Translations under genes and position numbers: made by a program
Notes under the pieces: model-generated
Told to the model about the DNA's origin: nothing
The model's input: only the letters and a program-made list of their open reading frames with translations
Databases searched by the model: none
Shown here: piece by piece, positions 6,145-44,740 of the stretch
Layout: each line of letters begins with the position of its first letter
How positions within the stretch are numbered: position 1 is the stretch's first letter
From: Escherichia phage EC115
Strand: one strand, 5' to 3'
Sequence record: NC_073080.1
DNA: 44,849 nucleotides

Positions 6145-6179
6145 TTTGTCTTCCTTCATATCTCTGTTGGTGTGCAACC

Positions 6180-6209
6180 AATATACTGCAACCAACATTC
6201 GCAATGCAA
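6180..6209 (-). promoter_or_regulatory. Sigma70-like promoter for the reverse-strand cassette
   Basis: On the minus strand TTGCAT-N18-TATATT; contains two TTGGTTGCA 9-mers; the 21-mer TATATTGGTTGCACACCAACA is identical to the one at 40282-40302. Confidence 0.45.
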
Positions 6210-11043: not shown

Positions 11044-11068
11044 TGGGGCCAGTACGGCCCCTTTTTTA
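11044..11068 (+). terminator. Intrinsic terminator after major tail gene
   Basis: GGGGCC-agta-CGGCCCC hairpin followed by a T-run. Confidence 0.6.
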
Positions 11069-11083
11069 TTGGAGAATTACATA

Positions 11084-11760: not shown

Positions 11761-11764
11761 CGAA

Positions 11765-12076: not shown

Positions 12077-12144
12077 AATAAGGTTTGTTTTAAATTCGCT
12101 GATACAATGACCGACGGCAACTGCATAAAAAGGGGGACTGCATA

Positions 12145-14787: not shown

Positions 14788-14793
14788 TAAAAT

Positions 14794-14820
14794 GGCCCTC
14801 ACTACAACGTGGGGGCTTTT
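14794..14820 (+). terminator. Hairpin plus T-run directly before the gene M start
   Basis: GCCCTCAC-tacaac-GTGGGGGC followed by five T, then ATG at 14822; terminator or attenuator. Confidence 0.4.
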
Positions 14821-14821
14821 T

Positions 14822-16206: not shown

Positions 16207-16208
16207 CC

Positions 16209-16949: not shown

Positions 16950-17557
16950 CAACGTTTAAATTGTACGGCGTCTTAGGGCGTCGATTCGGTAAAGTTCATA
17001 AGCTGGACTGCTTCACTCCGGGCGAGGGTATTACCGGCCTGTGCGTGAAGTTACCCGGCTTACAGGACTTTCTAATGTCAGCCCACCTGGACAATATGAT
17101 GTTCAAGGTGCGCAAAGGCGACCACACGATGACCGGCTATGATGAGCTGGGTGAGTTCCACGGCAACCGCGTCGTCACCATCGCGCCGGTTATGACTGGC
17201 GCAAAAAGAGGGTTGGGACAATTGCTGGCGGGTGTCGCGATCGTAGTGGCGTCGTTCTATACGGGCGGACTTGCTACTGCCGCTTTCGGGGCTTCGGCTG
17301 CAACCGCTGCCGCTATCGGGACGGCGACGTTTTCGTTCGGGATGTCGATGGCGCTGGGTGGCGTTATGCAATTGCTGTCGCCACAACCGAAGGGATTGCA
17401 GACAAGGCAGGACGTGGATAACAAGGCGTCGTATGCGTTCGGCGGCCCAGTAAACACTACCGCGCAAGGCACGGCTCTTGGTGTATTATGGGGCGAGCGT
17501 GAGATCGGCGGCGCTATTATTTCAGCCGGAATCGTAACCGAGGACTTGAACGAATGA
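16940..17557 (+). CDS. Tail assembly protein I-like
   Basis: 205 aa with Gly/Ala-rich hydrophobic C-terminal half; overlaps the K and J genes. Confidence 0.7.
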   Translation: MAMTTFKLYGVLGRRFGKVHKLDCFTPGEGITGLCVKLPGLQDFLMSAHLDNMMFKVRKGDHTMTGYDELGEFHGNRVVTIAPVMTGAKRGLGQLLAGVAIVVASFYTGGLATAAFGASAATAAAIGTATFSFGMSMALGGVMQLLSPQPKGLQTRQDVDNKASYAFGGPVNTTAQGTALGVLWGEREIGGAIISAGIVTEDLNE

Positions 17558-20500
17558 CGATTATCTACGACGTCACAGGGCATAAAGGCGGCGGCGGCAA
17601 ACAGCACACCCCACAGGAGACGCCAGATAGCCTGCATTCGCTGGCTAAAATCCGCATCTTGCTTGCACTGGGCGAGGGTGAATTCGAAAGTATTACCAGC
17701 GCCAGCGAATTGCGGCAGCGTGTTTACCTGGACGGAACACCGATCCAGAACGCTGACCTGTCCGAAAACTTCCCTGGCGCGCGTGTGGAGTTCCGCCCCG
17801 GCACACAGCACCAGGATGTGATCCACGGATTTTCAGCGGTGGAAAGTGAGCAATCTGTCGGCGTAAAACTGGAAAACGGCACGCCGTGGGTGCGCCAGAT
17901 TAACGATACCAGTCTGGACGCTGTTCGCATTCGCATCGGCATTCCAGCCCTGTACACTAACGAAGATAATGGCGACCTGGTGGGCGGGCGCATCGACTAT
18001 AAGATAGTTGTGTATACGGATAACGCCGACCCGCGTGAGTTCAGATTCGCCGCCGTTGGTAAAACAATGTCGCTATATGAGCGCGACCACCGCATCGAAT
18101 TACCTCCGAACGTTAACACCGGCTGGCGCGTGGAGGTGCACCGCATAACGGCAGACTCCACATCGGCGAAAGTGGTTAATGATATCCGGGTGCAGTCCAT
18201 CACTGAGATTATTGACGCCCGCCTGCGTTACCCGCTAACCGCGCTGTTGTTTGTGGAGTTCGACGCCAAAGCGTTCCAGAACATCCCGCGCGTGTCCATC
18301 AAGTGCAAAGGCCGTAAAGTTCTAATACCGAACAACTACGACCCGATTAATCATACCTATTCCGGGGACTGGGACGGCACGTTTAAACGCGCATGGACGG
18401 ATAACCCTGCGTGGCACTGGTACGATATTTGTATTACTGAGCGCTTCGGCCTCGGTCGGCGTATCAAACCGCAAATGTTAAACCGGTACGCGCTCTACCA
18501 GATTGCGCAGCGCTGCGATCAGTTGGTCAGCGACGGCAACGGTGGTCGAGAAATCCGCTTTAAGAATGATATGTACATCCAGTCGCAGACAGACGCCTGG
18601 ACCGTGCTTAAGGATTTGGCGGCCATCTTCGCCGGAATGACCTGGTGGGGTAACCAGATGTTGAATATCGTCAGTGACCAACCGGTCGCGGCGGTGTCGC
18701 ACACTATCACCAACGCCTCGGTAATTGATGGGCGATTCGACTACGCATCTGGTAGCCAGAAAACGCGCTATTCCACATTCGCGGTAGCATACGGCAATCC
18801 GAAAAACCACTATGAAGATGCTATCGCAACGGGGCAACGTGTCGAACTGGTACGCCGCCATAAGATTAACCGTCTTGATATTACGGCGATCGGCTGTACG
18901 CGTGAATCTGAAGCGCAACGCCGGGGGCACTGGGCGCTAATCTCAAACCAGCTTGACCAGCAAGTTAGTTTTAAGGTGGGCATGGAGGGGTTATTCTTTA
19001 TCCCCGGTAGCGTAGTTGCGATCGCAGATACTAATATTTCTGGCGGATTCGAGACTCGTGGCGGTCGCCTGTTGTCGGACCCTGGAACGCGTACCGTGCT
19101 GAACACGGACAGCGAAATCACATTCCGCCCTGGCGATAAGTTCCTGGTACGCACCGATAGCGGTAATGTGGAGACTCGCGAGATCGCCAGCGTCAACGGC
19201 AACAAGGTTACGCTAAAAACCGCACTTGATGCCGACCCGATTCCAGACCAGCCGTTTTGCGTTGATGGCGACGATATCCAGTTGCAAAAATTCCGCATCA
19301 CCGACCTGGAATATGACGACTCTACGAGCACTTTCTCGGTGCGCGGGATTGAATACAACGATAGCAAGTATGATGCCGTTGATAATGGCGCTCGCCTTGA
19401 CCCTGGCATCTTTACGCAAGTGCCTGACGGTGTAATGAAGGGGCCGGAATCCGTGACCATCACCCCGTCGCAGATTTCATCGCAAGGCCAGCTAATCACC
19501 AACGTGGATATTGTATTCCCTCCGGTGAAGGATGCCGTGGTGTATGAAATCCAGTGGCGACGTACCAGCTTGCAGAATATGGAAATCCAGTGGGGTAACG
19601 ACTGGGTGAATATCCCACGCACGGCGTCGAACGGCGCGCACATCCCCAACGTGTTCTCCGGTAACTATCAGGCACGCGTCCGCGCGATCGGTATGGGCGA
19701 GATTTCATCTCCGTGGGTGTCGTCCGCCATCACGCCGGTGGAAGGTCGTCTCGGTGGGCTTAACGCACCAATCATCACCAACGCTATTTCGGGCCTTCAC
19801 CAGATCTTGTGGAAGTGGAACCACAACAACGCCGCTACTGATATCTCGTACACCGAGCTTGAAGTGCGCAAGACCGGTGAGACTGAATGGAAATTCCTTA
19901 CCAACGTCCCATATCCGGGGGCGGAGTATGCGCAAACATCGCTGGAGTTCGGAATTTACCAGCAGTTGCGCGCCCGTGTAGCGGATAAAATCGGCAACCT
20001 GTCGGACTGGTCGGCCCCGTTTGAAGGGCAGGTGAGTGACAAAGTTGACGAGTACATGAAGGGGCTTGATGACGAGTTCTTGACTTCCGAGGATGGTAAA
20101 CGCTTCCAGGAAGCAATCAACACGATCCCGCAGGGTATTTACGAGGCGATGCTCACCGACGCGCAGCAATTGTTCAACGCCCGCGCCGAGTACAAGGGTA
20201 TTTATGCGGAAATCTCGGTCGCGTATAACGTGGCGGCGGACGCCCACAAGGCGGTCGCTCAACTGGAGACGTTGATCGGCACGCGACTTGATGACGCGGA
20301 AGCTGCGATCCACACGTTGCAGACCGCGCAGAGCACACAGGAACAAGCGTTCGCCCAGTATCAGCAAACTGTTGCCGCTAAGTTCGGGGAACAAGAAGCC
20401 GCCATCCAGCAGGTACAAACGGCAACCGCAGACGTGGCGGGAGCGCTGGCGGAATATAAGACCCAGGTCGCTGCACAGTTCGGTCAGCAGTCCGCCGCTA

Positions 20501-20973
20501 TCGAGCAGAAGATGACGTCCTCGTTTAACCACTCTGGTGGTAGCGCCACGTATAGCCTTAAGGCTGGCGTGACACATAACGGGACTTATTATGATGCGGG
20601 TATGCAGCTTTCCGTTGTGACGTCTGGCAACGCGGTTAAATCGCGTATTGCGTTCAAGGCGGACCAGTTCTACATCATGCATCCGTCCAATGGGACGCTG
20701 TCGTCTGCGTTTATTGTGGACGGTGGCGCGGTGTATATCGACACGGCACGCATCAAGAACGCGTCCATCAACTTCGCGCAGATAACAGACACGCTGCAAT
20801 CGGATAACTACGACGGCAGCACGCGCGGCTGGCGCTTAGGGAAAGATGGAACGTTTATCAACCTGGGCACCGGTAGCGGCGGCGGGATGAAACAGACGAA
20901 CACAAGAATAAGCGTGAAGGACGGAAACGGCGTTCTCCGCGTGCAGATTGGTGAGCTTACTGGTAGCTGGTAG
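17554..20973 (+). CDS. Tail tip / host specificity protein J-like
   Basis: 1139 aa, size and position as lambda J; Ala/Gln-rich repeats in the C-terminal third. Confidence 0.9.
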   Translation: MTIIYDVTGHKGGGGKQHTPQETPDSLHSLAKIRILLALGEGEFESITSASELRQRVYLDGTPIQNADLSENFPGARVEFRPGTQHQDVIHGFSAVESEQSVGVKLENGTPWVRQINDTSLDAVRIRIGIPALYTNEDNGDLVGGRIDYKIVVYTDNADPREFRFAAVGKTMSLYERDHRIELPPNVNTGWRVEVHRITADSTSAKVVNDIRVQSITEIIDARLRYPLTALLFVEFDAKAFQNIPRVSIKCKGRKVLIPNNYDPINHTYSGDWDGTFKRAWTDNPAWHWYDICITERFGLGRRIKPQMLNRYALYQIAQRCDQLVSDGNGGREIRFKNDMYIQSQTDAWTVLKDLAAIFAGMTWWGNQMLNIVSDQPVAAVSHTITNASVIDGRFDYASGSQKTRYSTFAVAYGNPKNHYEDAIATGQRVELVRRHKINRLDITAIGCTRESEAQRRGHWALISNQLDQQVSFKVGMEGLFFIPGSVVAIADTNISGGFETRGGRLLSDPGTRTVLNTDSEITFRPGDKFLVRTDSGNVETREIASVNGNKVTLKTALDADPIPDQPFCVDGDDIQLQKFRITDLEYDDSTSTFSVRGIEYNDSKYDAVDNGARLDPGIFTQVPDGVMKGPESVTITPSQISSQGQLITNVDIVFPPVKDAVVYEIQWRRTSLQNMEIQWGNDWVNIPRTASNGAHIPNVFSGNYQARVRAIGMGEISSPWVSSAITPVEGRLGGLNAPIITNAISGLHQILWKWNHNNAATDISYTELEVRKTGETEWKFLTNVPYPGAEYAQTSLEFGIYQQLRARVADKIGNLSDWSAPFEGQVSDKVDEYMKGLDDEFLTSEDGKRFQEAINTIPQGIYEAMLTDAQQLFNARAEYKGIYAEISVAYNVAADAHKAVAQLETLIGTRLDDAEAAIHTLQTAQSTQEQAFAQYQQTVAAKFGEQEAAIQQVQTATADVAGALAEYKTQVAAQFGQQSAAIEQKMTSSFNHSGGSATYSLKAGVTHNGTYYDAGMQLSVVTSGNAVKSRIAFKADQFYIMHPSNGTLSSAFIVDGGAVYIDTARIKNASINFAQITDTLQSDNYDGSTRGWRLGKDGTFINLGTGSGGGMKQTNTRISVKDGNGVLRVQIGELTGSW

Positions 20974-20976
20974 TAT

Positions 20977-20996
20977 AGGGGCTTCGGCCCCTTTTT
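20977..20996 (+). terminator. Intrinsic terminator after J
   Basis: AGGGGC-ttcg-GCCCCT hairpin followed by a T-run. Confidence 0.6.
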
Positions 20997-21009
20997 AACG
21001 AGGTTATTT

Positions 21010-21988: not shown

Positions 21989-22012
21989 AAAGCCCCGAAA
22001 GGGGCTTATTTG
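21989..22012. terminator. Bidirectional terminator
   Basis: AGCCCC-gaaa-GGGGCT hairpin followed by TATTTG, between converging genes. Confidence 0.55.
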
Positions 22013-22224
22013 CAGGTGGTGCTTTTGAAGTGGTCGACCGACACATACTGGAAGTTGAACGGATACCCCGCCTTGAGCATTTTGTGCCCGCTAAAGTCGG
22101 CGACACCGAACACTGGTACAGAATACTCCATACCGCTATTCATATATGTCGCGTCGCAGATTTTAGACGGCATACCGGCACAACCGGACAGAAGAACCGC
22201 ACAAATCATAATTAAAGTTTTCAT
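22006..22224 (-). CDS. Small lipoprotein, Cor-like superinfection-exclusion candidate
   Basis: 72 aa from ATG 22224 (AGGAGA RBS); MKTLIMICAVLLSGC signal peptide with lipobox; reverse-oriented between tail-tip and tail-fibre genes. Confidence 0.6.
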   Translation of the reverse strand: MKTLIMICAVLLSGCAGMPSKICDATYMNSGMEYSVPVFGVADFSGHKMLKAGYPFNFQYVSVDHFKSTTCK

Positions 22225-22303
22225 GTTATCATCTCCTATATTTGGTTGAGTTTTAGTATTACACCTCTCAACCAGGATTGCAACCAATTACGAGGATTTA
22301 GCT

Positions 22304-25461: not shown

Positions 25462-25491
25462 ACTATAGTGCAACCAACCTATTGGTTGCAA
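25462..25491 (-). promoter_or_regulatory. Promoter with embedded perfect palindromic operator
   Basis: Minus strand TTGCAA-N18-TATAGT; the spacer is filled by TGCAACCAA-ccta-TTGGTTGCA (25469-25490, 9 bp arms). Confidence 0.5.
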
Positions 25492-27370: not shown

Positions 27371-27399
27371 AAGATAATGCAACCAATATGATTATGCAA
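27371..27399 (-). promoter_or_regulatory. Candidate promoter with two direct TTGGTTGCA copies
   Basis: Minus strand TTGCAT-N17-TATCTT; 9-mers at 27378-27386 and 27395-27403. Confidence 0.35.
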
Positions 27400-27404
27400 C
27401 CAAT

Positions 27405-30327: not shown

Positions 30328-30356
30328 ACTATACCGCTATGCGACCAATTCAGCAA
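30328..30356 (-). promoter_or_regulatory. Candidate sigma70 promoter
   Basis: Minus strand TTGCTG-N17-TATAGT upstream of the zinc-ribbon gene. Confidence 0.35.
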
Positions 30357-30615
30357 CCAATAAATCACAGTCGGCGATGTTGTCTATAACGCGAACGTCA
30401 GCGCCGCGGCGGGCCATCCGCTCATGTTCACGTACCTGGTGCGGCTTCGGTTTTCCTCCTGGGCGCTTCACTTCGACGAACACTATTTTGCCGTTGATGA
30501 TGATAATCAGGTCGGGCGCACCTGCGCGCCCCTCCCAGGCCATTTTGCGGCAGAATCCGCCTACCTCTTTCACCCGTCGCATCAGGTGACTTTGAATCTT
30601 GCCTTCTGGTGTCAT
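30337..30615 (-). CDS. VRR-NUC domain nuclease
   Basis: 92 aa from ATG 30615; PDLIIIINGKIVFVEVKRPGGKPKPHQ matches the VRR-NUC D...E.K core; start overlaps the polymerase stop. Confidence 0.7.
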   Translation of the reverse strand: MTPEGKIQSHLMRRVKEVGGFCRKMAWEGRAGAPDLIIIINGKIVFVEVKRPGGKPKPHQVREHERMARRGADVRVIDNIADCDLLVAELVA

Positions 30616-33914: not shown

Positions 33915-34004
33915 TTTCCAATTCCTCATTTTCACATGTATCGGGGTTATTATGAGCCACCCCGTTCGGCTTGGTTGCTAATCTACTTGGTTGCGCCTAA
34001 GCGA

Positions 34005-36828: not shown

Positions 36829-37026
36829 GTTTTATATCTCCGATTGGTTAAGTTTAGGTGTCGACCATTAACTTCGTCGGTGGCCTTAACATATTGCCAG
36901 GTTACGCGTTCTCCCGTTCGGGTAGTGGACCTGGTTATATAATCACGGTTGGGAATCCTGACACTTCGATCCGGCCCCTGCGTTGCCCCTCTCCAGTTTG
37001 CGTCCTGCATCCTGTCGACGAGGTGA

Positions 37027-37055
37027 ATATTAGATTGGTTGCATGAGGGAGTCAA
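37027..37055 (-). promoter_or_regulatory. Leftward sigma70-like promoter for the early/replication operon
   Basis: Minus strand TTGACT-N17-TAATAT; overlaps a TTGGTTGCA 9-mer. Confidence 0.5.
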
Positions 37056-37063
37056 CAACTAAT

Positions 37064-37101
37064 TTCAAAAAAAAAGCGCCGAAGCAAAATGCGACGGCGC
37101 T
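37064..37101 (-). terminator. Strong leftward intrinsic terminator (orphan, upstream of the leftward promoter)
   Basis: On the minus strand AGCGCCG-14 nt loop-CGGCGCU followed by nine U (the A9 run on the plus strand). Confidence 0.6.
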
Positions 37102-37125
37102 AACCAATAAGAGACAATGAGACGG
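37067..37125 (-). ncRNA. Candidate small RNA (about 55 nt) ending at the orphan terminator
   Basis: Candidate leftward promoter at about 37131-37158 (TTGAAA-N17-AATAAT on the minus strand) lies about 30 nt upstream of the hairpin; no ORF. Hypothetical. Confidence 0.25.
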
Positions 37126-37170
37126 GAGTATTATTACACGCGTGCGCGCCCGTTTCAATATCCAAAGGAT

Positions 37171-37199
37171 TTGACACCTTGTGGTTTTAGGTGTAGTTT
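37171..37199 (+). promoter_or_regulatory. Rightward promoter for the HTH/primase operon
   Basis: TTGACA-N17-TAGTTT, then GAGGG RBS before the ATG at 37231; divergent from the leftward promoters. Confidence 0.45.
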
Positions 37200-37230
37200 C
37201 GTTGGTCATTAACCAACTGAGGGCAGAGCA

Positions 37231-37560
37231 ATGAATGTAAACGACGCAATCGAAATGTTAACGACGACTGTTAGCAGTGAAACAAGCCGGTCATGGGCTT
37301 ATACCGATGCCGTTGGGGCGGTGCTATTTGAGGTCGAGCGCCTGCGCAGTGTAGAAAAAGAATTACGCGCCAGGCTGGAATTGCTCAACGGTACGGCGGC
37401 GAGCAAGCTACAAAAACACAATGAAGAAATGGAAGAATACAAAAAGCAGGTTATCCGTTTGCGCGCCGAGGGCAAATCCTGGGCGATGATTGCCGAGTTG
37501 ACCGGAATTAATCAGAGCACAGTGCGCTCTTGGGTACGCAATAACAAAACTTCTAAGTAA
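37231..37560 (+). CDS. HTH DNA-binding protein (putative regulator)
   Basis: 109 aa; helical N-terminus and C-terminal HTH-like segment (SWAMIAELTGINQSTVRSW). Confidence 0.6.
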   Translation: MNVNDAIEMLTTTVSSETSRSWAYTDAVGAVLFEVERLRSVEKELRARLELLNGTAASKLQKHNEEMEEYKKQVIRLRAEGKSWAMIAELTGINQSTVRSWVRNNKTSK

Positions 37561-37570
37561 GGCCACGGCA

Positions 37571-39835
37571 ATGAGCTTAATTAAATTCGCTGTAACAAGA
37601 CCCGCTAAAAAAGGCGAAAAAGCCAGGGCGGAAAACTTCCAGATGACGACCGATGAGTTTTTCGAATTTATCAAAGATGCGAAAGAAATCTCCTCGGTGC
37701 ATATCAACAAGACGGAAGATAAAGCCGAGTATGCGCGCCGCAAGCGTAAGGCCGACGGCATCGTGGCGTATACCAGTGACGGATTGCGTCGTAAGACCAG
37801 TGCGGTGGACCGCTCGATCCTGTTCTTTGATATCGACCGCACCGACACTCGCACCTTGCGCCGCTGCCGTAAGGCTTTCATCGATGCGGGTCTGGAACAC
37901 GTATTCCACACCACTACGGGCGACCGCCACCCGCTGAAGGGCGGAACGCGTTGCGCCCGATTCCTGGTGCTCACTGACAAGCCTGTCCCGGCGGAAGACC
38001 TGGGCCGTGTCCAGTATGCGCTATTACACCAACTTGGTCTGTCAGATGTGGACTTCGACGATTGCACGAAAGACACAAACCGCCTGATGTACCTGCCACA
38101 CCAGCAGTCTGTTATTAAGTGCCACTACGGAAAACGTGCCCGAGTCCGTCGTCTGCTTCGCCTGGCGGATAAGTTGGGCGTGGAGAAGGAGGAAGTACGC
38201 CGCGAACTAACCCAGGGCGATGACGCAGTGGCAGACGGCATTCTGGACTGGTGCTTCCAGGCAGGATTCGAGGAGTTATCTTCCGGTCGCGGTTATGAAG
38301 TGCCGTGCCCGAACGAACATCTGCACAGCGGCGAAGGGTCGACGGCTATCATGGTCAAGGATGGCGAGATCCGTTTCAAGTGTATGCACACCGGCAACGA
38401 GTGTTGCTCGGAACTGAATAGACACCAGCACCTGGCGCTGCGTCTTATCGGGATCCCTGACCACCTGAACGTCGAGCCACACAACATGTCCCGTAAGCAA
38501 ATCGCCGCCATCCTTCCGGGGCTGGACGACGAGGAAGTCGAATCCTTATATGAACATATTGTTGATGCGGTTGGCGACGGCGAAGAATACGGCGTGTGCA
38601 CCGATGCGGATCTGGATAACGAGCCGGTTGCGCTGTTCAGCAAGCACGACCCGATCATCGAGGGGTTGATTAACTTCAAATCGACCTGGTACATGGCGGG
38701 TGAGTCGAATATTGGTAAGTCTTTCTACGTGCTGGGTCAAATGGGCGCTGTTGCCGCCGGTATTCCGTTCGGCGGTGCGAAGGTCGTCCAGTCTCATTGC
38801 TTCTATTTCGATGCGGAAGGTGGTGAAGCCTCCAACCAGCGTAAAGAAGCATTGCAGATTAAATACGAGCACGACCTGGACAAGCTGCACATTATCGATC
38901 TGCAGTCACGCGGCTGGGATATCACCAGCAAATCCGGCTTGCGCGAAGTTATCAGCTTTATCAACCGCACCGCTAACGGCGAACCGGTTGGCCTGGTGGC
39001 GTTCGACTCACTCAACCAGACTGTTGCGCTGCGGTCCGCCGATGCTAAACCGTTCGACGAGAACAACGCCAGCGATATGGGTGAAGTGGTCAAAGCGCTG
39101 AAAGCCATTGCGGAAAATACAGGTGGCAGTGCGGGCGTCATCCACCACCCGGCGAAGGGTGCCAACGGCAGCAGAACCCCACGCGGATCCGGCGCGCTGC
39201 ATGGTGCTGTCGATTCTGCGTTCTTCCTGGAACAGCCGGACGACAACCAGCCCGGACAATTGAACCTGTATCACGAAAAGTCACGTAACGGCATCAAGCA
39301 AGCGCCGCGCGGCTTCGTCCTGCTCAAGTGCAAGGTGAAGGTGGATCTCCGCAAGTCAGAAGCGTTCGAGGTGCACCAGTCCACCAGCACCGGGCCAGAC
39401 TTCGGCGACGTGGTTGCCGGATGGGACGTCAAGCCGATTGCCTCCACGCCACGCGACGAGACTCTCTACCTCGTACCGGTTGCCCTGGCACCGTTCGCTA
39501 TTGAACAGGCGAAGGCCGCGGGCAAAGCAGCAGTTAAAGAAGAGAACACCGCCGGACCGCGCAACGAAAAAGAGAAAGTGCTTTATGCGGCACTGGAAAA
39601 ACTGATGGAAGATAACCCGGACCATACTGGATTCAGTAAATCGGCAATTGTCCGCCAGGCTGGGCTGGCAAAAGGTGGCACTTCGACGAAGGCAATCGAC
39701 GATATGGTAGAGCGCGGAGTGATAGGTTTTTACACCGATCCGCACACTGGGGCCATCTATGGGTCGTCTAATTTGGTCATCAAATCGGATATCCCCATCA
39801 CGCTTTCAGCGACCGATGACGATTTAAAAGATTAA
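37571..39835 (+). CDS. DNA primase / RecA-like P-loop helicase with C-terminal winged-helix-like domain
   Basis: 754 aa; N-terminal acidic FFDIDRTD motif, Cys/His zinc-binding segment, Walker A GESNIGKS and Walker B-like FYFDAEGG, C-terminal ~120 aa resembling a winged helix. Confidence 0.75.
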   Translation: MSLIKFAVTRPAKKGEKARAENFQMTTDEFFEFIKDAKEISSVHINKTEDKAEYARRKRKADGIVAYTSDGLRRKTSAVDRSILFFDIDRTDTRTLRRCRKAFIDAGLEHVFHTTTGDRHPLKGGTRCARFLVLTDKPVPAEDLGRVQYALLHQLGLSDVDFDDCTKDTNRLMYLPHQQSVIKCHYGKRARVRRLLRLADKLGVEKEEVRRELTQGDDAVADGILDWCFQAGFEELSSGRGYEVPCPNEHLHSGEGSTAIMVKDGEIRFKCMHTGNECCSELNRHQHLALRLIGIPDHLNVEPHNMSRKQIAAILPGLDDEEVESLYEHIVDAVGDGEEYGVCTDADLDNEPVALFSKHDPIIEGLINFKSTWYMAGESNIGKSFYVLGQMGAVAAGIPFGGAKVVQSHCFYFDAEGGEASNQRKEALQIKYEHDLDKLHIIDLQSRGWDITSKSGLREVISFINRTANGEPVGLVAFDSLNQTVALRSADAKPFDENNASDMGEVVKALKAIAENTGGSAGVIHHPAKGANGSRTPRGSGALHGAVDSAFFLEQPDDNQPGQLNLYHEKSRNGIKQAPRGFVLLKCKVKVDLRKSEAFEVHQSTSTGPDFGDVVAGWDVKPIASTPRDETLYLVPVALAPFAIEQAKAAGKAAVKEENTAGPRNEKEKVLYAALEKLMEDNPDHTGFSKSAIVRQAGLAKGGTSTKAIDDMVERGVIGFYTDPHTGAIYGSSNLVIKSDIPITLSATDDDLKD

Positions 39836-39941
39836 ATTTTGCGCGCATTGGTTGCCATTTTGAGTGTTTTTAGCTGGTAGCATTGGTTGCCGTGTAGTGT
39901 GAATATAATGCATAGTTATGCAATAAAACTGCATAAAGTAA

Positions 39942-40099
39942 GCGGGACAAAAAGCGGGACAAACAGGAGGCGGGACAAAGCGGGACAGCACCCCTGTCCC
40001 GCCCCGGATGACGCGGCCTGACGAGGAGCGGGACAGCGGGACAGCACCCCAGTCTTTCAGACTAGACGGGGGGTCTGTCACCCCCCTCGTCTGAGACTG
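39942..40099. repeat. Second iteron array: GCGGGACA(A/G) repeats plus the same ~48 bp imperfect palindrome
   Basis: Six or more GCGGGACA copies; shares GCGGGACAAAGCGGGACAGCACCCCTGTCCC and AGTCTTTCAGACTAGACGGGGG...CCCCCCTCGTCTGAGACTG with the array at 11765-12076. Confidence 0.75.
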
Positions 40100-40258
40100 C
40101 ATAAAATCCAGGATTGCATAACGCACGGCAGCATGTTGCGGATTGCGGTCGTCGATGAACTAGGCAACCAATGCGAGGTGCAGAATGGCGGGCGGGAAAT
40201 GCAGTTTGCAGTCACAGCAGATAGCGATCAACTTTTTCATGCGCGTGATTAATATTGG

Positions 40259-40287
40259 TTGCATTCGGCCTGGCACCTTGCTATATT
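40259..40287 (+). promoter_or_regulatory. Sigma70-like promoter flanked by TTGGTTGCA copies
   Basis: TTGCAT-N17-TATATT; 9-mers at 40255-40263 and 40286-40294; GAGGA RBS before the ATG at 40316. Confidence 0.5.
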
Positions 40288-40315
40288 GGTTGCACACCAA
40301 CATGAGGACTGAACA

Positions 40316-40642
40316 ATGAAAGCGATTATCTGGAATTACGCAATGGCTATGGCGAAGGCACAAGAAGCGGCGGAGTTCGCCGGTGAAGGAGCGGAAGCGG
40401 TCGAAAGACTATCGGCAGCGTGGTCCGTTGTTCGCGTCACGCAGCAGGCCATCGCCTGTATGCTGGAGCGCCGCTTCGACACGATGGCAGAGATCCAGCC
40501 ACTAGCGAACGCAATCCAGGACTACGCGCTTGCATTTGCCCGTGAGCGCCTGGCGTATCGCTTCGGGATCGGTGAGACGGCAGTGACAAACGTCGCCCGG
40601 ATTAAAGCCCAGCGCGAGCTATTCGCCCAGCTTGCGAAATAA
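40316..40642 (+). CDS. Hypothetical protein
   Basis: 108 aa Ala-rich helical protein, first gene downstream of the promoter. Confidence 0.55.
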   Translation: MKAIIWNYAMAMAKAQEAAEFAGEGAEAVERLSAAWSVVRVTQQAIACMLERRFDTMAEIQPLANAIQDYALAFARERLAYRFGIGETAVTNVARIKAQRELFAQLAK

Positions 40643-40651
40643 GGTGCCAAA

Positions 40652-40924
40652 ATGGACCGCAGACGCGCGAAACAGCTTTCGTGGCATATCCCACTGCATT
40701 GCATACGAATATGGGCTAAGAATGCGAATGAGGGCGATTCTGTGTTCTGGAGCTATCGCGACGATGTGAAGCCCCTAACGCAGACCCGCTATCTGCACCA
40801 GTTCGCCAGGGAGCATGGATTCGCTATAAAAACGTCCTTGCAACCAATTGGCATCCGTATTACATTACGCCGGAAGCCCGCCGTTGAGCGGGTAGGCAAA
40901 CACTGGAGACTGAGCAAATGTTGA
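40652..40924 (+). CDS. Hypothetical protein
   Basis: 90 aa basic ORF in operon context. Confidence 0.5.
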   Translation: MDRRRAKQLSWHIPLHCIRIWAKNANEGDSVFWSYRDDVKPLTQTRYLHQFAREHGFAIKTSLQPIGIRITLRRKPAVERVGKHWRLSKC

Positions 40925-41048
40925 TAGGCGGATTCGCGCAGGAGTTTATCTACCTGCATATGTGCGAACTTGACTACAAACAAAACGGCATCGCTACGGT
41001 ATGCGATGGCGACACGAAGACTATCGAAGAGATCGAGGAGACAGAGCA

Positions 41049-41606
41049 ATGAAATTACTATTCCGCCGTAAGCACGATGGTCGCATCCTGAAGCCGATCC
41101 AGACCCTGGATTCCTACGTCCGCTTACAAAACGCGGCAGGCAATCGGGTGTGGCGGGCACCGAAACACACGCTGCCGCAGTTCTTCGACGTACTCACTCA
41201 CGATATCGAGCGCGGCGATGTGCTGCGGGATATTCGCGACGGGCAATTGTGGGTCGTTGAGCACACCAGCCAGCACGGCTTGCGTATGCAGACCCGCAAG
41301 GGCGGCGTAGCGGGTAACGTTCAGAGGGGTATGACCTACTTCGGGCTGGTCAACTACGTGCGCGTAGGCCGGAACTACACACCTAAGCGCCCTGGTGTAG
41401 TGGCGAAAGAGATCACCCGTACGGAACACCCATATACCAAATACGACGAGAGCAAGGTGCGCCAGCGTATCGACAATGCCAGGGCGCTAGCTGCCGCCAT
41501 GATTCAGGCTGGCAACGATGCCAAACGATTTGGGATTGGTGTTATTCTGGTCTACCCCGACGGCAGCATGAAGTCTACCGATCCGCGCGGGGTCATTCAG
41601 AAATGA
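41049..41606 (+). CDS. Hypothetical protein
   Basis: 185 aa from ATG 41049 (GAGGAG RBS; track ORF 41001); no recognised motif. Confidence 0.55.
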   Translation: MKLLFRRKHDGRILKPIQTLDSYVRLQNAAGNRVWRAPKHTLPQFFDVLTHDIERGDVLRDIRDGQLWVVEHTSQHGLRMQTRKGGVAGNVQRGMTYFGLVNYVRVGRNYTPKRPGVVAKEITRTEHPYTKYDESKVRQRIDNARALAAAMIQAGNDAKRFGIGVILVYPDGSMKSTDPRGVIQK

Positions 41607-41813
41607 GTGCGACGATCCGGGATATGCTTCAGCATAACCGCTTTGAGATAGGCGGTCGGGTATTTCGCAATTACTTCGTGGCGCGTGCATGGGCGCGCCA
41701 TATTGGCAAACCGGAAGGGGCAATTCGATGCTATACGTCTTCGCGGTAGTATGTGGCGGTAGTCTGGCGGCCCTGGTGCTGTTGGCGTCGGTTATTAATC
41801 TGGTTAAATACCT

Positions 41814-42113
41814 ATGGGGCAGATTATGATTCATGATGTGATTTATTGGTTTGGTATGGCAAGCATATTATGCCTGGTTACGGGAGCGCTGGGCGCGATA
41901 TGGGTATTCCTGGTATGGCCCGCCGTGGAAGCCGCCAGCATTACCCGCATGACGTTCGAGGTATACAAGCGCCGTGGAATCACGGAGCACCCGACCAGGT
42001 TGCGCATGTGGTGGCTGTGGTATCGGGATATGATTGGGGGCCGGATGTTCGAGGCCGTCAGATCGGAAGGATGGGAGTGGAAAGGCGTCGGCAAGTGGTC
42101 CGTTTTCGATTAA
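41814..42113 (+). CDS. Membrane protein (lysis-associated?)
   Basis: 99 aa with an N-terminal hydrophobic helix and Trp/Arg-rich C-terminus; upstream of the holin. Confidence 0.45.
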   Translation: MGQIMIHDVIYWFGMASILCLVTGALGAIWVFLVWPAVEAASITRMTFEVYKRRGITEHPTRLRMWWLWYRDMIGGRMFEAVRSEGWEWKGVGKWSVFD

Positions 42114-42130
42114 TTATGCAAGCGTGATAT

Positions 42131-42165
42131 AGTCCCAGTGAGATAAAACTTACTGGGACTTTTTT
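42131..42165 (+). terminator. Hairpin plus T-run immediately before the holin start codon
   Basis: AGTCCCAGT-12 nt loop-ACTGGGACT followed by five T, then ATG at 42166. Confidence 0.45.
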
Positions 42166-42456
42166 ATGGATAAGCTAAACGAGTGGTTATTCGCCCTTGC
42201 GTGTCTTGCTGGTGGCTTCGTAGGCGCACGCATTCATGGCGAGGCAACGAAAGGGCCGTTGAACTTCGTTTTATATGTCGTAGTTGGCTTCCTGTGTGCC
42301 ATATTTGGTGCGCCAGCTATTGCCGAGTGGTCTGGTTTGTCCGGTGAGCGCACTGTTGCCGGTTTGGGCTTCGTAACTGCCATCTTCTGGATGCCAATAG
42401 CTGACCGGATCCGGGAGACAATTGCGTCGCTACACCTTCCGGGGGGCGCAAAATGA
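42166..42456 (+). CDS. Holin (putative, three transmembrane segments)
   Basis: 96 aa with three hydrophobic segments and a charged C-terminus; upstream of the endolysin. Confidence 0.55.
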   Translation: MDKLNEWLFALACLAGGFVGARIHGEATKGPLNFVLYVVVGFLCAIFGAPAIAEWSGLSGERTVAGLGFVTAIFWMPIADRIRETIASLHLPGGAK

Positions 42457-42698
42457 TTATCACCGTCCTGTTGTTTGTTATCATAGGGGCTTCGTCCCTG
42501 TTTAACGTGTATGCGCCGTCCGTTCAGGATGGCTTCTTCGGTCGGGTGTTATATCTGCTAACAGCAATGACCTGTATTGTCGGGCTGTTGCAAACGGGAG
42601 ACGTCTCTGATGCCACCTGGACCGCGTTAATCTGGCTGTTTGCATTGCGCACCCTGCGTAATGCTGTTTTGAATGGGGTAAAACATGCGATTCAGTGA
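42453..42698 (+). CDS. Second holin-like membrane protein
   Basis: 81 aa with three hydrophobic segments; ATGA overlap with the holin, overlaps the endolysin start. Confidence 0.5.
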   Translation: MIITVLLFVIIGASSLFNVYAPSVQDGFFGRVLYLLTAMTCIVGLLQTGDVSDATWTALIWLFALRTLRNAVLNGVKHAIQ

Positions 42699-43176
42699 TA
42701 ACGGTCTACGATTTACGGCAGCATGGGAGGCTTTCAGCCCGGTGCCGTATTTCGCGACCAAGAAAGAGCAGGCCCGCGGCCTGTACACCTGGGGTTATGG
42801 GCACACTGGCACTAATCCGCCACGAAGCATTACCCGTGCGGAAGCGCTGGAACTGCTCAAGCGCGATGTGGCGTATGCTGAGGACTGGGTGAACAAATAC
42901 GCACATCCGAGCATTAACCAGGCGCAATTCGACGCGCTGGTGGATCTGGTAATCAACGCCGGTCCAGGTCCGATCGTACCGGATGACGTCGCGAACGACT
43001 TTGATGATGCGGTGCGACTGGGCGACTGGGCGAAGGTACGAGCTACTCTGCCGCAGTTCCGCAAGCAAGGTGGCGAAGTGCTTAAGGGTCTGGTGCGCCG
43101 TGCAATCGGCAGGCAAGCGCTATTCGATGGTAAGCAGTGGGACGTTGCCGAGCGAATCGGTCGTAACGCTGCATAA
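42685..43176 (+). CDS. Endolysin (phage lysozyme-like)
   Basis: 163 aa; E...YTWGYGHTG segment resembling the catalytic region of phage lysozymes; follows the holins. Confidence 0.75.
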   Translation: MRFSDNGLRFTAAWEAFSPVPYFATKKEQARGLYTWGYGHTGTNPPRSITRAEALELLKRDVAYAEDWVNKYAHPSINQAQFDALVDLVINAGPGPIVPDDVANDFDDAVRLGDWAKVRATLPQFRKQGGEVLKGLVRRAIGRQALFDGKQWDVAERIGRNAA

Positions 43177-43192
43177 TACGAGGTGACACGAT

Positions 43193-43360
43193 ATGTTAAA
43201 AAGTATTCTTGATCATAATGCGGACGCGCTTGCTGCACTGGCTAAAACCGAAGACCCTGGCGCACGCGCTATCATCGCGGACACTATCAGCCATGCAGGC
43301 GTCTTCGATGCGAAGCTGCCAAGCCCACCACCGCAGGAGGAATCTGGTCCTGCAGCGTAA
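43193..43360 (+). CDS. Small hypothetical protein
   Basis: 55 aa with GAGG RBS, Pro-rich C-terminus; followed by a terminator. Confidence 0.4.
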   Translation: MLKSILDHNADALAALAKTEDPGARAIIADTISHAGVFDAKLPSPPPQEESGPAA

Positions 43361-43366
43361 ACAATC

Positions 43367-43394
43367 AAGCCCGGATAATTCCGGGCTTTTTATT
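43367..43394 (+). terminator. Intrinsic terminator after lysis cassette
   Basis: AAGCCCGG-ataatt-CCGGGCTT hairpin followed by TTTATT. Confidence 0.65.
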
Positions 43395-43455
43395 GCTTGA
43401 CTCGCAACCAACACAGGGGCCATACTGCAACCAATCAACTGGAGGAGTAATCAAG

Positions 43456-43536
43456 ATGGCACGTAAAGATATTTGGGTATTAGCGATCTGGACCACCGCG
43501 GCTTTTATCGGCATGGTTATTTGCGAATTGATATAG
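43456..43536 (+). CDS. Hydrophobic micro-protein (26 aa)
   Basis: MARKDIWVLAIWTTAAFIGMVICELI with strong GGAGGAG RBS; two GCAACCAA 9-mers upstream. Confidence 0.35.
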   Translation: MARKDIWVLAIWTTAAFIGMVICELI

Positions 43537-43597
43537 CCAGCCGCCATACGGACCGTGGTATATTGTCCACGGTCCACTAATCAGGAATTAATTAAAT

Positions 43598-44740
43598 ATG
43601 CACCCGCAAACTAAAATTACCGATGAGCAATTGATCGCAGAAATTCAGGCAGGGACTACGGTTAAAGATATTGCGAAGAAATACGGGATTGCCCTACGCA
43701 ATGTTTATATGCGGAAAGCCCGCCTATCGAAAAAATGCATTGGACACGGCAACGATGCCGTAATCCGCAAGCGCGTTGCCGATGGCTTTGGGGTTAAGCG
43801 CGTATCGGCCCTGGTGCGCGGCAATGGCGAAGAGGTCATGTCGTGGGTCATCACTGAGCAGGACAAAGAGCGCCAACTCGAAGCCATGCGCGCTGTTGTC
43901 GAGGGTATGAACAGCGAAATCACACCGGCAGCGCCAGTAAAAGCCCCGCCAGTTCCGATCCAGGCGCTCGACTTGCTCAACCTGTACACCGTGTCAGACT
44001 TCCACCTGGGCATGTTGGCATGGGGCGAGGAGACTGGCGAAGACTGGGATATGGCGATCGCCGAAGACCTGTTCTACCGCTGGTTTGTCGAAGCCTTCGC
44101 ACGCGCCCCGGACGCAGGCACTGCCGTAATTAATATCCTCGGTGATATGGCCCACTTTGATAGCCTCGATGCTGTCACTCCGGCAAGTGGTCACATACTG
44201 GACGCGGACACCCGCTACCAGAGACTGGTACGATACATGATTCGCATGGTGCGCAACGTCGTCGAACTGGCGCTGCAAAAACACCACAAAGTCAAACTGC
44301 TAATCGTCCAGGGGAATCATGATGAGTCGGGCATGATTTGGCTTGCTGAGATGTTCAACACGCTGTACGAGAACGAGCCGCGCGTCGATGTGGACACGTC
44401 CCCGGACGTCTACAAAATGGTGCAGCACGGTAAGACCACGCTATTTTTCCACCACGGGCACAAAGCGCGATTCGATGCTATCGAGCAGGTTATGATCGCT
44501 AAATTCAGACAGGCGTTCGGGGCGAGCGAATACAGCTACGCGCACGTAGGTCATTTGCACCACCAGAAGATTGTTGAGTCCCGCAACATGATTGTTGAAC
44601 AGCACCGGACGCTCGCAGCGAAAGACGCCTACGCCAGCCGTGGTGGTTGGATGTCCGGTCGCAGCGCCAACGTCATTACCTACAGCGCCAACTACGGCGA
44701 AGTAGCGCGCTTAACCATTAGCCCGGAAATGTTGAAGTAA
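43598..44740 (+). CDS. Metallophosphatase with N-terminal HTH-like region
   Basis: 380 aa; calcineurin-like motifs ILGDMAH, GNHDE, GHLHH; N-terminal 40 aa resemble an HTH. Confidence 0.75.
   Translation: MHPQTKITDEQLIAEIQAGTTVKDIAKKYGIALRNVYMRKARLSKKCIGHGNDAVIRKRVADGFGVKRVSALVRGNGEEVMSWVITEQDKERQLEAMRAVVEGMNSEITPAAPVKAPPVPIQALDLLNLYTVSDFHLGMLAWGEETGEDWDMAIAEDLFYRWFVEAFARAPDAGTAVINILGDMAHFDSLDAVTPASGHILDADTRYQRLVRYMIRMVRNVVELALQKHHKVKLLIVQGNHDESGMIWLAEMFNTLYENEPRVDVDTSPDVYKMVQHGKTTLFFHHGHKARFDAIEQVMIAKFRQAFGASEYSYAHVGHLHHQKIVESRNMIVEQHRTLAAKDAYASRGGWMSGRSANVITYSANYGEVARLTISPEMLK

What the first reader, a model, noticed from the sequence alone, without database searches (positions are those of the whole stretch)
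40255..40294. Recurrent 9-mer TTGGTTGCA (TGCAACCAA), mostly paired, at about ten promoter regions
Copies occur at 6173/6187, 22279, 25469/25482, 27378/27395, 30349, 33971/33987, 37035, 39848/39883, 40255/40286 and 43404/43426, almost all in intergenic promoter regions, in both orientations, with spacings from 13 to 36 bp. Several overlap a -35-like TTGCAT and flank a TATATT -10; the 21-mer TATATTGGTTGCACACCAACA is identical at 6160-6180 (minus) and 40282-40302. This suggests one factor, phage-encoded or host, co-regulates many phage promoters.
Basis: seen in the sequence. Interest (0 to 1): 0.65.

Follow-up and report, generated by a model that had tools for sequence, protein, structure and literature searches.

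The report
Phage-wide operator word inside promoters
A virulent E. coli phage (a Dhillonvirus) has about 20 conserved copies of the 8-10 bp word A-TTGGTTGC-A built into the core of about ten of its promoters, most likely as docking sites for one small phage DNA-binding protein that controls them together; this type of control is familiar, but this word and this protein have not been described.

Summary
TTGGTTGCA occurs 12 times against 0.57 expected. The core TTGGTTGC occurs 21 times, and only two copies lie deep inside genes, which is the chance level. The window is a Dhillonvirus (HK578/EP23-like virulent coliphage). The core is the first or second most over-represented 8-mer in seven full genomes, and ranks first or second again in three relatives only ~71 % identical. 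Motif columns are 99.4 % conserved against 89.9 % for neighbouring intergenic columns. Copies sit inside sigma70-like core promoters in fixed registers: forward copies start at -39 (the word's TTGCA is the -35 hexamer), -22 or -8, and reversed copies lie in the spacer or just after the -10. The pair spacings of 31, 14 and 17 bp are the differences between these registers. The best explanation is an operator word read one monomer per word. The likely reader is the only helix-turn-helix (HTH) protein in the genome, a 109-aa protein (37231-37560) mis-annotated as transposase or Gam. Its HTH is invariant, it is confined to this clade, and its own leader carries a related site. Binding and its sign (repression favoured) are inferred, not shown. 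This is a new member of a known kind (compare mycobacteriophage L5 stoperators and the T1/Stevie repeats). Interest is moderate.

The parts
40255..40263 (+). Word copy (exact) in the -39 slot of P_hyp108; its TTGCAT (40259-40264) is the -35 hexamer
   Evidence: invariant in 19 unique orthologues while the spacer varies
40286..40294 (+). Word copy (exact) in the -8 slot of P_hyp108, overlapping the -10 TATATT (40282-40287) and the start site; part of the TTGGT-N5-ACCAA inverted repeat 40286-40300
6173..6181 (-). Word copy (exact) in the -8 slot of leftward P_hyp104 (-10 at 6180-6185); same 21-mer as at 40282-40302
6187..6195 (-). Word copy (exact) in the -22 slot (spacer) of P_hyp104; the pair also lies about -60/-74 from a candidate rightward scaffold/capsid promoter (-35 at 6217-6222, TG-extended -10 at 6239-6244)
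22279..22287 (-). Single exact copy in the -39 slot of the promoter of the Cor-like superinfection-exclusion gene (-10 at 22255-22260)
25469..25490 (.). Divergent pair TGCAACCAA-ccta-TTGGTTGCA as read on the + strand (the - strand reads ...tagg...): exact copies at 25469-25477 (-) and 25482-25490 (+). One is in the -22 slot; the reversed one supplies the -35 TTGCAA of leftward P_24906 (-10 at 25462-25467)
27378..27403 (-). Direct pair 17 bp apart (27378-27386 and 27395-27403, both exact) in the -22 and -39 slots of leftward P_hyp80 (-10 at 27371-27376)
30340..30360 (-). Direct pair of one-mismatch copies (TTGGTCGCA at 30340-30348, TTGGTTGCT at 30352-30360) in the last codons of the resolvase gene; the upstream copy is in the -39 slot of leftward P_hyp57 (-10 at 30328-30333)
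33971..33995 (+). Direct pair 16 bp apart (..GCT, ..GCG), reversed relative to the leftward promoter of the Gp2.5-like SSB gene; one copy is in the spacer next to the -10 (33980-33985), the other immediately downstream of it
37035..37043 (+). Exact copy, reversed, in the spacer of leftward early promoter P_L1 (TTGACT 37050-37055, TAATAT 37027-37032); distant relatives have two tandem copies 9 bp apart here
37202..37216 (+). TTGGT-N5-ACCAA inverted repeat (contains the 6/8 copy TTGGTTaa on the - strand) just downstream of the -10 of P_R (TTGACA 37171-37176, TAGTTT 37194-37199), the promoter of the HTH gene; candidate autoregulatory site
   Evidence: distant relatives have a perfect GCAACCAA at the same place
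37231..37560 (+). Candidate reader: 109-aa protein with a variable N-terminus, a long helix and a C-terminal HTH; first gene of the rightward operon, directly before the helicase-primase
39848..39891 (+). Two GCATTGGTTGCC copies (39848-39856, 39883-39891) on the left side of the GCGGGACA iteron cluster; a perfect TATAAT lies at 39904-39909
40163..40171 (-). GCATTGGTTGCC copy on the right side of the iteron cluster, forming a 13-nt inverted repeat with 39844-39856
40839..40847 (-). Exact copy, reversed, inside the 3' end of ORF 40652-40924; it supplies the -35 TTGCAA (40838-40843) of a rightward promoter (-10 at 40861-40866) ahead of gene 40918
43403..43434 (-). Direct pair 23 bp apart (43403-43411 ..GCG; 43426-43434 exact), reversed, in the spacer and immediately after the -10 of rightward P_phos (TTGACT 43397-43402, CATACT 43421-43426). 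P_phos follows a terminator (43367-43388) and leads into the phosphoesterase and terminase genes

Best explanation
A-TTGGTTGC-A is the recognition word of one sequence-specific DNA-binding protein. Each 8-9 bp word is read by one monomer. The words are built into the core of about ten sigma70-type promoters, so that the bound protein competes with, or reshapes, RNA polymerase binding. Forward copies occupy three fixed registers: -39 (where the word's TTGCA is itself the -35 hexamer), -22 (spacer) and -8 (overlapping the -10 and the start site). Reversed copies lie over the -35, in the spacer, or directly after the -10. Most promoters carry two copies. The most likely reader is the 109-aa HTH protein encoded at 37231-37560 (SO-1 gp47 / HK578 gp45). 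It is made early from a consensus promoter, P_R, that lacks a full word. As it accumulates it would most probably turn down the word-bearing promoters and, weakly, its own. That is a Cro-like or stoperator-like global repressor in a virulent phage. It may also activate the rightward capsid promoter from upstream sites at 6173-6195. Shown here: enrichment, location, selection, registers, and clade-wide co-occurrence with the protein. Inferred: that a protein binds at all, that it is this protein, and that binding represses.
For: Enrichment: 12 copies against 0.57 expected. TTGGTTGC is the first or second most over-represented 8-mer in 7 full genomes, 19-22 copies against about 1.8 expected. Location: 19 of 21 copies are intergenic or in the last codons before the next gene. 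Selection: motif columns are 99.4 % identical and 93 % invariant, against 89.9 % and 63 % for other intergenic columns (p = 3e-15); promoter spacers vary while the word and the -10 stay fixed. Deep conservation: relatives only ~71 % identical still have the word ranked first or second among over-represented 8-mers, mostly intergenic and paired. One monomer per word: the information has sharp 10-bp edges, tandem copies lie 9 bp apart, spacings run from 9 to 35 bp, and both orientations occur. Registers: -10-like hexamers pile up at offsets -4, +10 and +27 on the same strand and +8 on the opposite strand. The offsets were defined on the window and tested on the distant relatives: 12/30 sites against 11.4 % of control positions, p = 6e-5. 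Reader: it is the only HTH protein found among about 60 genes. Its HTH SWAMIAELTGINxSTVRSW is nearly invariant while the N-terminus is hypervariable. The family is restricted to this clade, with 34 clusters among 5.8 billion proteins. The model shows a long helix plus a small tri-helical HTH of the kind that reads 6-9 bp. A word or a TTGGT-N5-ACCAA repeat sits in its own leader. Controls: a Kagunavirus with the same architecture but a Cro/cI-type protein in that slot has 0 copies. Paired copies elsewhere in IMG/VR are coding micro-repeats. There is no match in 5,426 E. coli genomes.
Against: There is no binding or expression data for any Dhillonvirus; the literature searches found none. The link between protein and word is only co-occurrence within one clade, so it is confounded with phylogeny. 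The base shift at +9 between alleles is confounded in the same way. The same protein is also the obvious candidate to bind the GCGGGACA iterons, and the authors of an OLD-defence preprint group it with replication initiation. Repressing nearly all promoters, including the one leading into the terminase genes, is awkward for a lytic programme unless long transcripts from P_R and P_L read through. HK578-type phages have no site in the P_R leader. The -35 and -10 assignments were made by eye or by loose consensus, and the generic promoter scan is not enriched overall (18 found against 15.5 expected).
Confidence: 0.6

Rival explanations
1. The word is read by a host (E. coli) DNA-binding protein that the phage exploits, not by a phage protein.
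For: The word is invariant across phages with at least four different N-terminal alleles of the HTH protein. No direct evidence ties the phage protein to the word. From memory (not tested): host regulators have partly similar half-sites, for example GntR/FadR-type ATTGGT (PdhR, UxuR), the CytR GTTGCATT octamers that tolerate variable spacing and orientation, and the NtrC TGGTGCA.
Against: There are no copies in Kagunavirus St162, which infects a closely related host and has the same genome layout. The P_hyp108 unit is absent from 5,426 E. coli genomes. Dispersed intergenic pairs in IMG/VR occur only on dhillonvirus-like contigs. The conserved bases are TTGGTTGC, whereas position 9 and beyond are weak. 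That fits none of the recalled host motifs: CytR would need GCATT conserved and would not need TTGG; PdhR has N3 spacing.
Confidence: 0.12
2. The word is a promoter element read by RNA polymerase itself: a phage-specific extended -35 (TTGG + TTGCA), read either directly by sigma70 or after a phage factor has re-targeted sigma region 4 (a T4 MotA/AsiA-like appropriation). On this reading it is an activating, promoter-defining signal rather than an operator.
For: In six promoters the word's TTGCA(A/T) is the -35 hexamer at correct 17-18 bp spacing (+27 peak). These -35 hexamers match the consensus at only 3-4 of 6 positions, so help could be useful. The HTH protein scores against Sigma70_r4_2. 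The early consensus promoter P_R has no full word.
Against: The same word is equally common in the spacer (-22), over the -10 and start site (-8), and reversed just after the -10. An activator or a -35 surrogate cannot work from those positions. TTGG is invariant even where the word is not at the -35. Word-bearing promoters with good -35 hexamers (TTGACT) also exist. The fold match is to generic HTHs, not specifically to sigma.
Confidence: 0.15
3. The word serves DNA replication or segregation rather than transcription, as auxiliary origin sites or centromere-like sites for the HTH protein encoded next to the helicase-primase.
For: Five copies lie in the 480-bp region between the helicase-primase gene and the next gene. 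Three of them (GCATTGGTTGCC) bracket the GCGGGACA iteron cluster as an inverted repeat. HK578 escapers of the OLD defence map to the helicase-primase gene and to the promoter of the HTH gene.
Against: The other 14 or so copies are spread over 37 kb, each inside a promoter-like unit 21-72 nt before a gene start. The second iteron cluster (11761-12144) has no copy. The registers relative to -10 hexamers have no meaning for replication.
Confidence: 0.08
4. The repeats are remnants of promoter duplication or chance and are not under selection of their own.
For: An identical 21-mer occurs at two loci. The relatives used for the footprint are closely related (about 90 % identity).
Against: Similarity between sites stops at the edges of the 10-bp word. 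The two genes behind the 21-mer are unrelated. The word is retained at non-alignable intergenic sites in relatives ~71 % identical. Motif columns evolve about 17 times more slowly than their neighbours.
Confidence: 0.02

Closest known systems
Mycobacteriophage L5 / cluster A immunity repressor (gp71) and its 'stoperators' (Brown et al. 1997 as cited in PMC4319613; PMC9283540)
   Same: A short asymmetric word is repeated about 20-30 times across a siphophage genome, predominantly in intergenic DNA. It is read by a monomer of a phage-encoded HTH protein. The sites overlap early promoters and also lie ahead of many other genes.
   Different: The L5 word is 13 bp long, is read by two DNA-binding domains of one monomer, and points one way relative to transcription; it blocks elongation and maintains lysogeny. 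The word here is 8-10 bp, points both ways (13 forward and 8 reversed in the window), sits in fixed registers inside core promoters, and is usually paired. The phage has no integrase or prophage form (no match in 5,426 E. coli genomes). The proteins show no detectable similarity.
22-bp asymmetric intergenic repeats of coliphage T1 and Citrobacter phage Stevie (PMC4319613)
   Same: These are virulent enterobacterial siphophages with 16-20 copies of an asymmetric, mostly intergenic repeat. No function or reader is known.
   Different: The sequence is different (VWATAGCAYKWWTTGYTAAAAV) and longer, and it has a single orientation. No relation to -35/-10 elements is reported.
Lambda Cro (and the Cro/cI-type protein in the equivalent slot of Guernseyvirinae, e.g. 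St162 gp11)
   Same: A small HTH protein is encoded by the first gene of the rightward early operon, just upstream of the replication genes. Its operators overlap the early promoters, including its own, and it turns down early transcription during lytic growth.
   Different: Cro is a symmetric dimer on 17-bp palindromes at two loci only. Here there are about 20 asymmetric words at about ten promoters, and the fold is different (a long helix plus a C-terminal tri-helical HTH).
Phage phi29 p4 and T4 MotA (from established knowledge; not tested here)
   Same: A single phage protein reads a short box placed at or near the -35 of many promoters and sets the temporal programme of a virulent phage. 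p4 represses and activates divergent promoters from the same sites, which could apply to the 6145-6298 divergent region.
   Different: The MotA box has one fixed position (-30) and needs AsiA. p4 sites are inverted repeats upstream of the promoters. Neither protein places its sites over the -10 and the start site.

Membership tests
Stoperator-type system (mycobacteriophage cluster A) | Asymmetric word present in many (more than 15) copies, predominantly intergenic | tested here: met
   21 copies of TTGGTTGC, 19 of them intergenic or at gene 3' ends; the word is not palindromic
Stoperator-type system (mycobacteriophage cluster A) | Single orientation relative to the direction of transcription | tested here: not met
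   13 copies are forward and 8 reversed relative to the local direction of transcription
Stoperator-type system (mycobacteriophage cluster A) | Reader homologous to the L5 gp71-type repressor; temperate life style | tested here: not met
   No similarity by Pfam, PDB sequence search or fold search. No integrase was annotated in the six relatives' records inspected. No prophage-like match in E. coli genomes.
Stoperator-type system (mycobacteriophage cluster A) | Bound repressor blocks elongating RNA polymerase | not testable with these tools
   Needs in vitro or in vivo transcription assays
Classical repressor operator (Cro/CI-like) | Sites overlap the -35, -10 or +1 of the regulated promoters | tested here: met
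   Registers -39, -22 and -8, and reversed copies within -34..+3. The promoters themselves are predicted, not mapped.
Classical repressor operator (Cro/CI-like) | Palindromic operator bound by a symmetric dimer at fixed half-site spacing | tested here: not met
   The pairs are mostly direct repeats with spacings of 9-35 bp. Only three TTGGT-N5-ACCAA inverted repeats exist.
Classical repressor operator (Cro/CI-like) | The regulator's own promoter carries a site (autoregulation) | tested here: inconclusive
   Distant relatives have a perfect copy in the P_R leader, window-type phages have a degenerate or inverted-repeat version, and HK578-type phages have none.
Sigma appropriation / MotA-box type activator site | Box at one fixed position that replaces the -35 element | tested here: not met
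   Only about 6 of about 19 copies lie at the -35; the others are in the spacer, over the -10, or downstream of it.
Transposase / resolvase / lambda Gam (the database names given to gene 37231-37560) | A catalytic domain (DDE or serine recombinase), or similarity to Gam | tested here: not met
   The protein has 109 aa. Only HTH_23, HTH_28 and Sigma70_r4_2 match, over residues 65-105. The fold matches only the HTH subdomain of resolvases and IstA. No Gam family hit was found.

The most novel reading that the evidence does not exclude
The 109-aa protein is not a simple repressor but a phage-specific promoter-identity factor. Tethered by its long helix, its sigma-region-4-like head reads TTGGTTGC in any of three registers of a promoter, and its hypervariable N-terminus contacts RNA polymerase or another partner. 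One 8-bp word would then both silence and activate promoters, as phi29 p4 does at divergent promoters such as 6145-6298. It would also couple transcription to the neighbouring iteron origin, and so set the whole temporal programme of a virulent siphophage that has no polymerase or sigma gene of its own.
Probability: 0.15. Interest if true: 0.7.

Novelty: new member of a known kind. Interest (0 to 1): 0.45.

Why it matters
Dhillonviruses are abundant and widely used E. coli phages (the BASEL collection, SECphi18, HK578, and phage-therapy and defence-system studies), yet nothing is known about how they time gene expression. If the reading here is right, it provides three things. First, a map of about ten promoters with their control sites. 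Second, a named candidate master regulator that databases currently mislabel as transposase, resolvase or Gam. Third, a compact 8-bp operator plus a 109-aa protein that could be tested in an afternoon by gel shift and reused as an orthogonal regulatory part. It also offers a tractable model for the unexplained asymmetric intergenic repeats of other virulent siphophages such as T1.

Tried and rejected
1. The generic sigma70 scan over 24-44 kb was not enriched over shuffles (18 against 15.5), so the promoters had to be assigned from conservation and from registers relative to the word.
2. Rfam found nothing anywhere in the window. The invariant block upstream of the leftward early genes shows no unusual RNA folding (z = 0.2).
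3. Covariation between protein and motif could not be tested. The HTH family has only 34 clusters, all from this clade and all with the same reading helix. The shift at flanking base +9 between allele groups is confounded with phylogeny.
4. The IMG/VR scan for paired words returned 86 non-dhillonvirus loci, but all eight inspected in detail (those with the most dispersed copies) are (TTGGTTGCA)n coding micro-repeats inside long ORFs. They are not operators.
5. No second DNA-binding candidate was found. Pfam and PHROGs scans of 40 small or unannotated proteins flagged only the 109-aa HTH protein.
6. The helicase-primase shows only an AAA_25 core and no PDB relative, so I could not assign the GCGGGACA iterons to it.
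7. Duplication as the origin of the identical 21-mer was rejected. The downstream genes are unrelated and the flanks do not align.
8. Host-motif resemblances (CytR, NtrC, PdhR-type) are recalled from memory only. They were rejected because the pattern of conserved bases does not fit.
9. Literature searches for the word, for Dhillonvirus or HK578 promoters and for transcriptomes found no earlier description.

Full report
WHAT THE WINDOW IS. The window is a complete or nearly complete genome of a Dhillonvirus, the HK578/EP23/JL1/SO-1-like virulent siphophages of E. coli. It is 90-98 % identical to more than 130 GenBank records. It starts at the small terminase gene. I mapped the genes by tblastn of the annotated proteins of phage welsh and corrected the map with PHROGs; for example, ORF 40652-40924 is a real gene. 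The layout is as follows:
- Structural genes run rightward from 1 to 24262. Two small leftward cassettes are embedded in them: hyp104 plus an Nmad5-domain protein at 5026-6144, and a Cor-like exclusion gene at 22006-22224.
- A leftward block of replication and modification genes runs from 36828 down to 24289.
- A 402-bp divergent early region lies at 36829-37230.
- A rightward block runs from 37231 to 44740: the HTH protein, the helicase-primase, small genes, lysis genes and a phosphoesterase. It leads back into the terminase genes.

THE OBSERVATION. TTGGTTGCA occurs 12 times against 0.57 expected. With one mismatch allowed, eight more copies appear in intergenic DNA. The seven one-mismatch copies inside genes are about what chance gives. 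Aligning the 20 sites shows that the information is confined to A-TTGGTTGC-A and drops sharply to nothing on both sides. An unbiased 8-mer screen under an order-3 Markov model ranks GCAACCAA (= TTGGTTGC) first in the window, with 21 copies against 1.8 expected. It ranks first or second in six other full genomes. Non-coding DNA makes up 7.1 % of the window. Sixteen of the 21 copies touch it. Three lie in the last codons of a gene just ahead of the next gene. Two are deep in genes, which is the chance expectation.

SELECTION. I aligned ten motif-bearing regions with their orthologues from 21 relatives. The 160 motif columns are 99.4 % identical and 93 % invariant. The 1,764 other intergenic columns are 89.9 % identical and 63 % invariant (Mann-Whitney p = 3e-15). 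The footprints show the word and a nearby -10-like hexamer staying fixed while the DNA between them changes freely. Three metagenomic relatives keep the gene order but are only ~71 % identical in the parts that still align. In them the word still ranks first or second among over-represented 8-mers (13, 10 and 13 copies in 20, 10.7 and 20 kb). The copies are again mostly intergenic and paired, at sites that no longer align with the window.

ANATOMY.
- Pairs are mostly direct repeats, with start-to-start spacings of 9, 12-17, 23, 31 and 35 bp. Two words can lie only 9 bp apart in tandem, so one word is one binding unit.
- Relative to the word, -10-like hexamers pile up at four offsets: -4, +10 and +27 on the same strand and +8 on the opposite strand.
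- Forward words therefore start at -8, -22 or -39 of a promoter. At -39 the word's own TTGCA(T/A) is the -35 hexamer. The observed spacings of 31, 14 and 17 bp are exactly the differences between these three slots.
- I defined the offsets on the window and tested them on the distant relatives: 12 of 30 sites fit, against 11.4 % of control intergenic positions (p = 6e-5).
- One search gives exact coordinates for 13 promoter-like units, 11 of which carry at least one word. Word-bearing promoters precede hyp108, hyp104/Nmad5, the Cor-like gene, four internal entry points of the leftward replication block, gene 40918, and the unit after the terminator at 43367-43388 that leads into the phosphoesterase and terminase genes. 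One of the two leftward early promoters also carries a word.
- The gaps inside the capsid and tail gene cluster (7001-21009) have none.
- The promoter of the HTH gene, P_R (TTGACA-17-TAGTTT), has no full word. Its leader carries the inverted repeat TTGGT-N5-ACCAA. That arrangement occurs only three times in the window, against about 0 expected, each time just after a -10. In the distant relatives a perfect word occupies this place.

WHO READS IT. Pfam and PHROGs scans of 40 small or unannotated proteins found a single sequence-specific DNA-binding candidate: the 109-aa product of 37231-37560, which matches HTH_23, HTH_28 and Sigma70_r4_2 over residues 65-105. Databases call it transposase, resolvase or 'recombination nuclease inhibitor gamma'. 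It has no catalytic domain and no Gam signature.
- The family is tiny and confined to this clade: 153 phage records, and 34 clusters among 5.8 billion proteins.
- Its N-terminal ~45 residues come in at least four unrelated versions. Its C-terminal half, including the reading helix INxSTVRSW, is almost invariant, which matches the invariance of the word.
- AlphaFold2 (mean pLDDT 83.5) predicts a short helix, a 59-residue helix and a compact HTH.
- Foldseek matches only the HTH part, to the resolvase/Hin, GerE/LuxR/NarL, IstA and DeoR DNA-binding domains. From general knowledge, these domains read about 6-9 bp per monomer.
- Kagunavirus St162 has the same genome layout, but a Cro/cI-type protein occupies this slot. 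It has no copy of the word.
- Paired words elsewhere in IMG/VR are coding micro-repeats.
- The P_hyp108 unit has no match in 5,426 E. coli genomes.

MECHANISM, AND HOW SURE I AM. It is well supported (about 0.85) that the word is a functional, promoter-embedded cis element read by one trans-acting factor. That the factor is the 109-aa protein is an inference from exclusivity and co-occurrence (about 0.6). The sign of regulation is inferred from geometry. Sites over the -35, in the spacer, and over the -10 and start site, in either orientation, are where repressors sit. The promoters also look able to work unaided, with 3-5 of 6 matches in each hexamer. I therefore favour a Cro-like turn-down of accessory, internal and early promoters as the protein accumulates, with weak autoregulation. 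The main difficulty is that almost every promoter would be repressed. That works only if long read-through transcripts from P_R and P_L carry the essential genes, or if the protein is a dual regulator. A dual role is possible at 6145-6298. There the two words that overlap the leftward promoter lie about 60 and 74 bp upstream of the likely start of a rightward TG-extended promoter for the scaffold and capsid genes.

RIVALS. A host factor, a promoter element read by polymerase itself, a replication function, and chance or duplication were each considered. The evidence for and against each is set out in the rival-explanations section of this report. The replication reading deserves one caution. 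Three GCATTGGTTGCC copies bracket a cluster of GCGGGACA iterons. In addition, an OLD-defence preprint reports HK578 escapers in the helicase-primase gene and in the promoter of the HTH gene. The protein may therefore also, or instead, act at the origin.

COMPARISON AND NOVELTY. The closest known systems are:
- the stoperators of mycobacteriophage L5 and its relatives (PMC9283540);
- the unexplained 22-bp asymmetric repeats of T1 and Stevie (PMC4319613);
- Cro-type early repressors.
The feature here fails the defining stoperator tests of single orientation and repressor homology, and the Cro test of palindromic operators. It works like these systems but is not a member of those families. I found no description of the word or of the protein's function in the literature I could search. 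The HK578 record annotates only three generic consensus promoters, and the SO-1 record only two 'repeat regions'. I rate it a new member of a known kind, of moderate interest.

Noticed in passing
window 11761-12144 and 39930-40050: A second, unrelated repeat family: GCGGGACA(G/A) iterons. There are 19 copies in the window, 15 of them in two non-coding clusters 28 kb apart. One cluster lies, oddly, between the tail chaperone and tape-measure genes; the other follows the helicase-primase gene. They include 32-nt inverted repeats and TGCATAA(A) repeats. The SO-1 GenBank record marks both as 'repeat region A/B'. Two iteron clusters plus a primase-helicase recall the ori/crr pair of phage P4 (from memory).
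   Followed up: partly
window 5026-6144 (-): A leftward two-gene cassette sits inside the head-gene cluster: a 104-aa protein of unknown function and a 254-aa Nmad5 ('nucleotide modification associated domain 5') protein (E = 1.6e-60). It is driven by a word-bearing promoter that shares an identical 21-mer with P_hyp108. HK578 and SO-1 carry different genes at this spot, so it looks like a swappable moron slot.
   Followed up: partly
window 36920-37019: A 100-bp non-coding block in the leader of the leftward early operon is almost invariant (only three columns vary) across 14 unique dhillonvirus sequences. Part of it (about 36872-36996) is 87-92 % identical to unannotated DNA of unrelated T1-like phages (ityhuna, BEBK14, KMI8, PHB17). 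It contains a perfect TATAAT (36938-36943). There is no Rfam hit and no unusual RNA fold (z = 0.2).
   Followed up: partly
window 37231-37560: The HTH protein's N-terminal ~45 residues occur in at least four unrelated allelic forms, and HK578-type phages have a 142-149 aa version. The C-terminal 60 residues are nearly invariant. This pattern suggests diversifying selection or module swapping on a partner-binding end. The database names (transposase, resolvase, Gam) are unsupported.
   Followed up: partly
whole window; also L028 (Salmonella phage St162): The 8-mers ACGGCAGC and ACGGCAAC are strongly over-represented (25 and 24 copies against about 3 expected). They lie mostly on the coding strand (35 copies on the same strand as the gene, 10 opposite). 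The related CGGCAAC(A) is also the top word in Kagunavirus St162. The cause is unknown; it could be a codon or peptide bias or a strand-specific signal.
   Followed up: partly
window 43456-43536: A small conserved ORF (about 26 codons, hydrophobic) follows directly after the word-bearing promoter P_phos. It is not annotated in phage welsh, and CHD5UKE2 annotates a small ORF in the equivalent gap.
   Followed up: no
GenBank records MG065648 (Campylobacter phage A144) and OQ221563 (Acinetobacter phage NJ01): Both are ordinary dhillonviruses (91-100 % identical to the window in the regions compared), although they are attributed to hosts outside the Enterobacteriaceae. Contamination or host mis-assignment is likely.
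   Followed up: no
L022, L024, L026 compared with the window: The base preferences flanking the invariant core differ between groups of phages whose reading helix differs at residue 95. At +9, A dominates with Q95 or R95, and G is the most frequent with V95. At -2, A is preferred only with V95. This could reflect protein-DNA co-variation, but it is confounded with phylogeny.
   Followed up: partly
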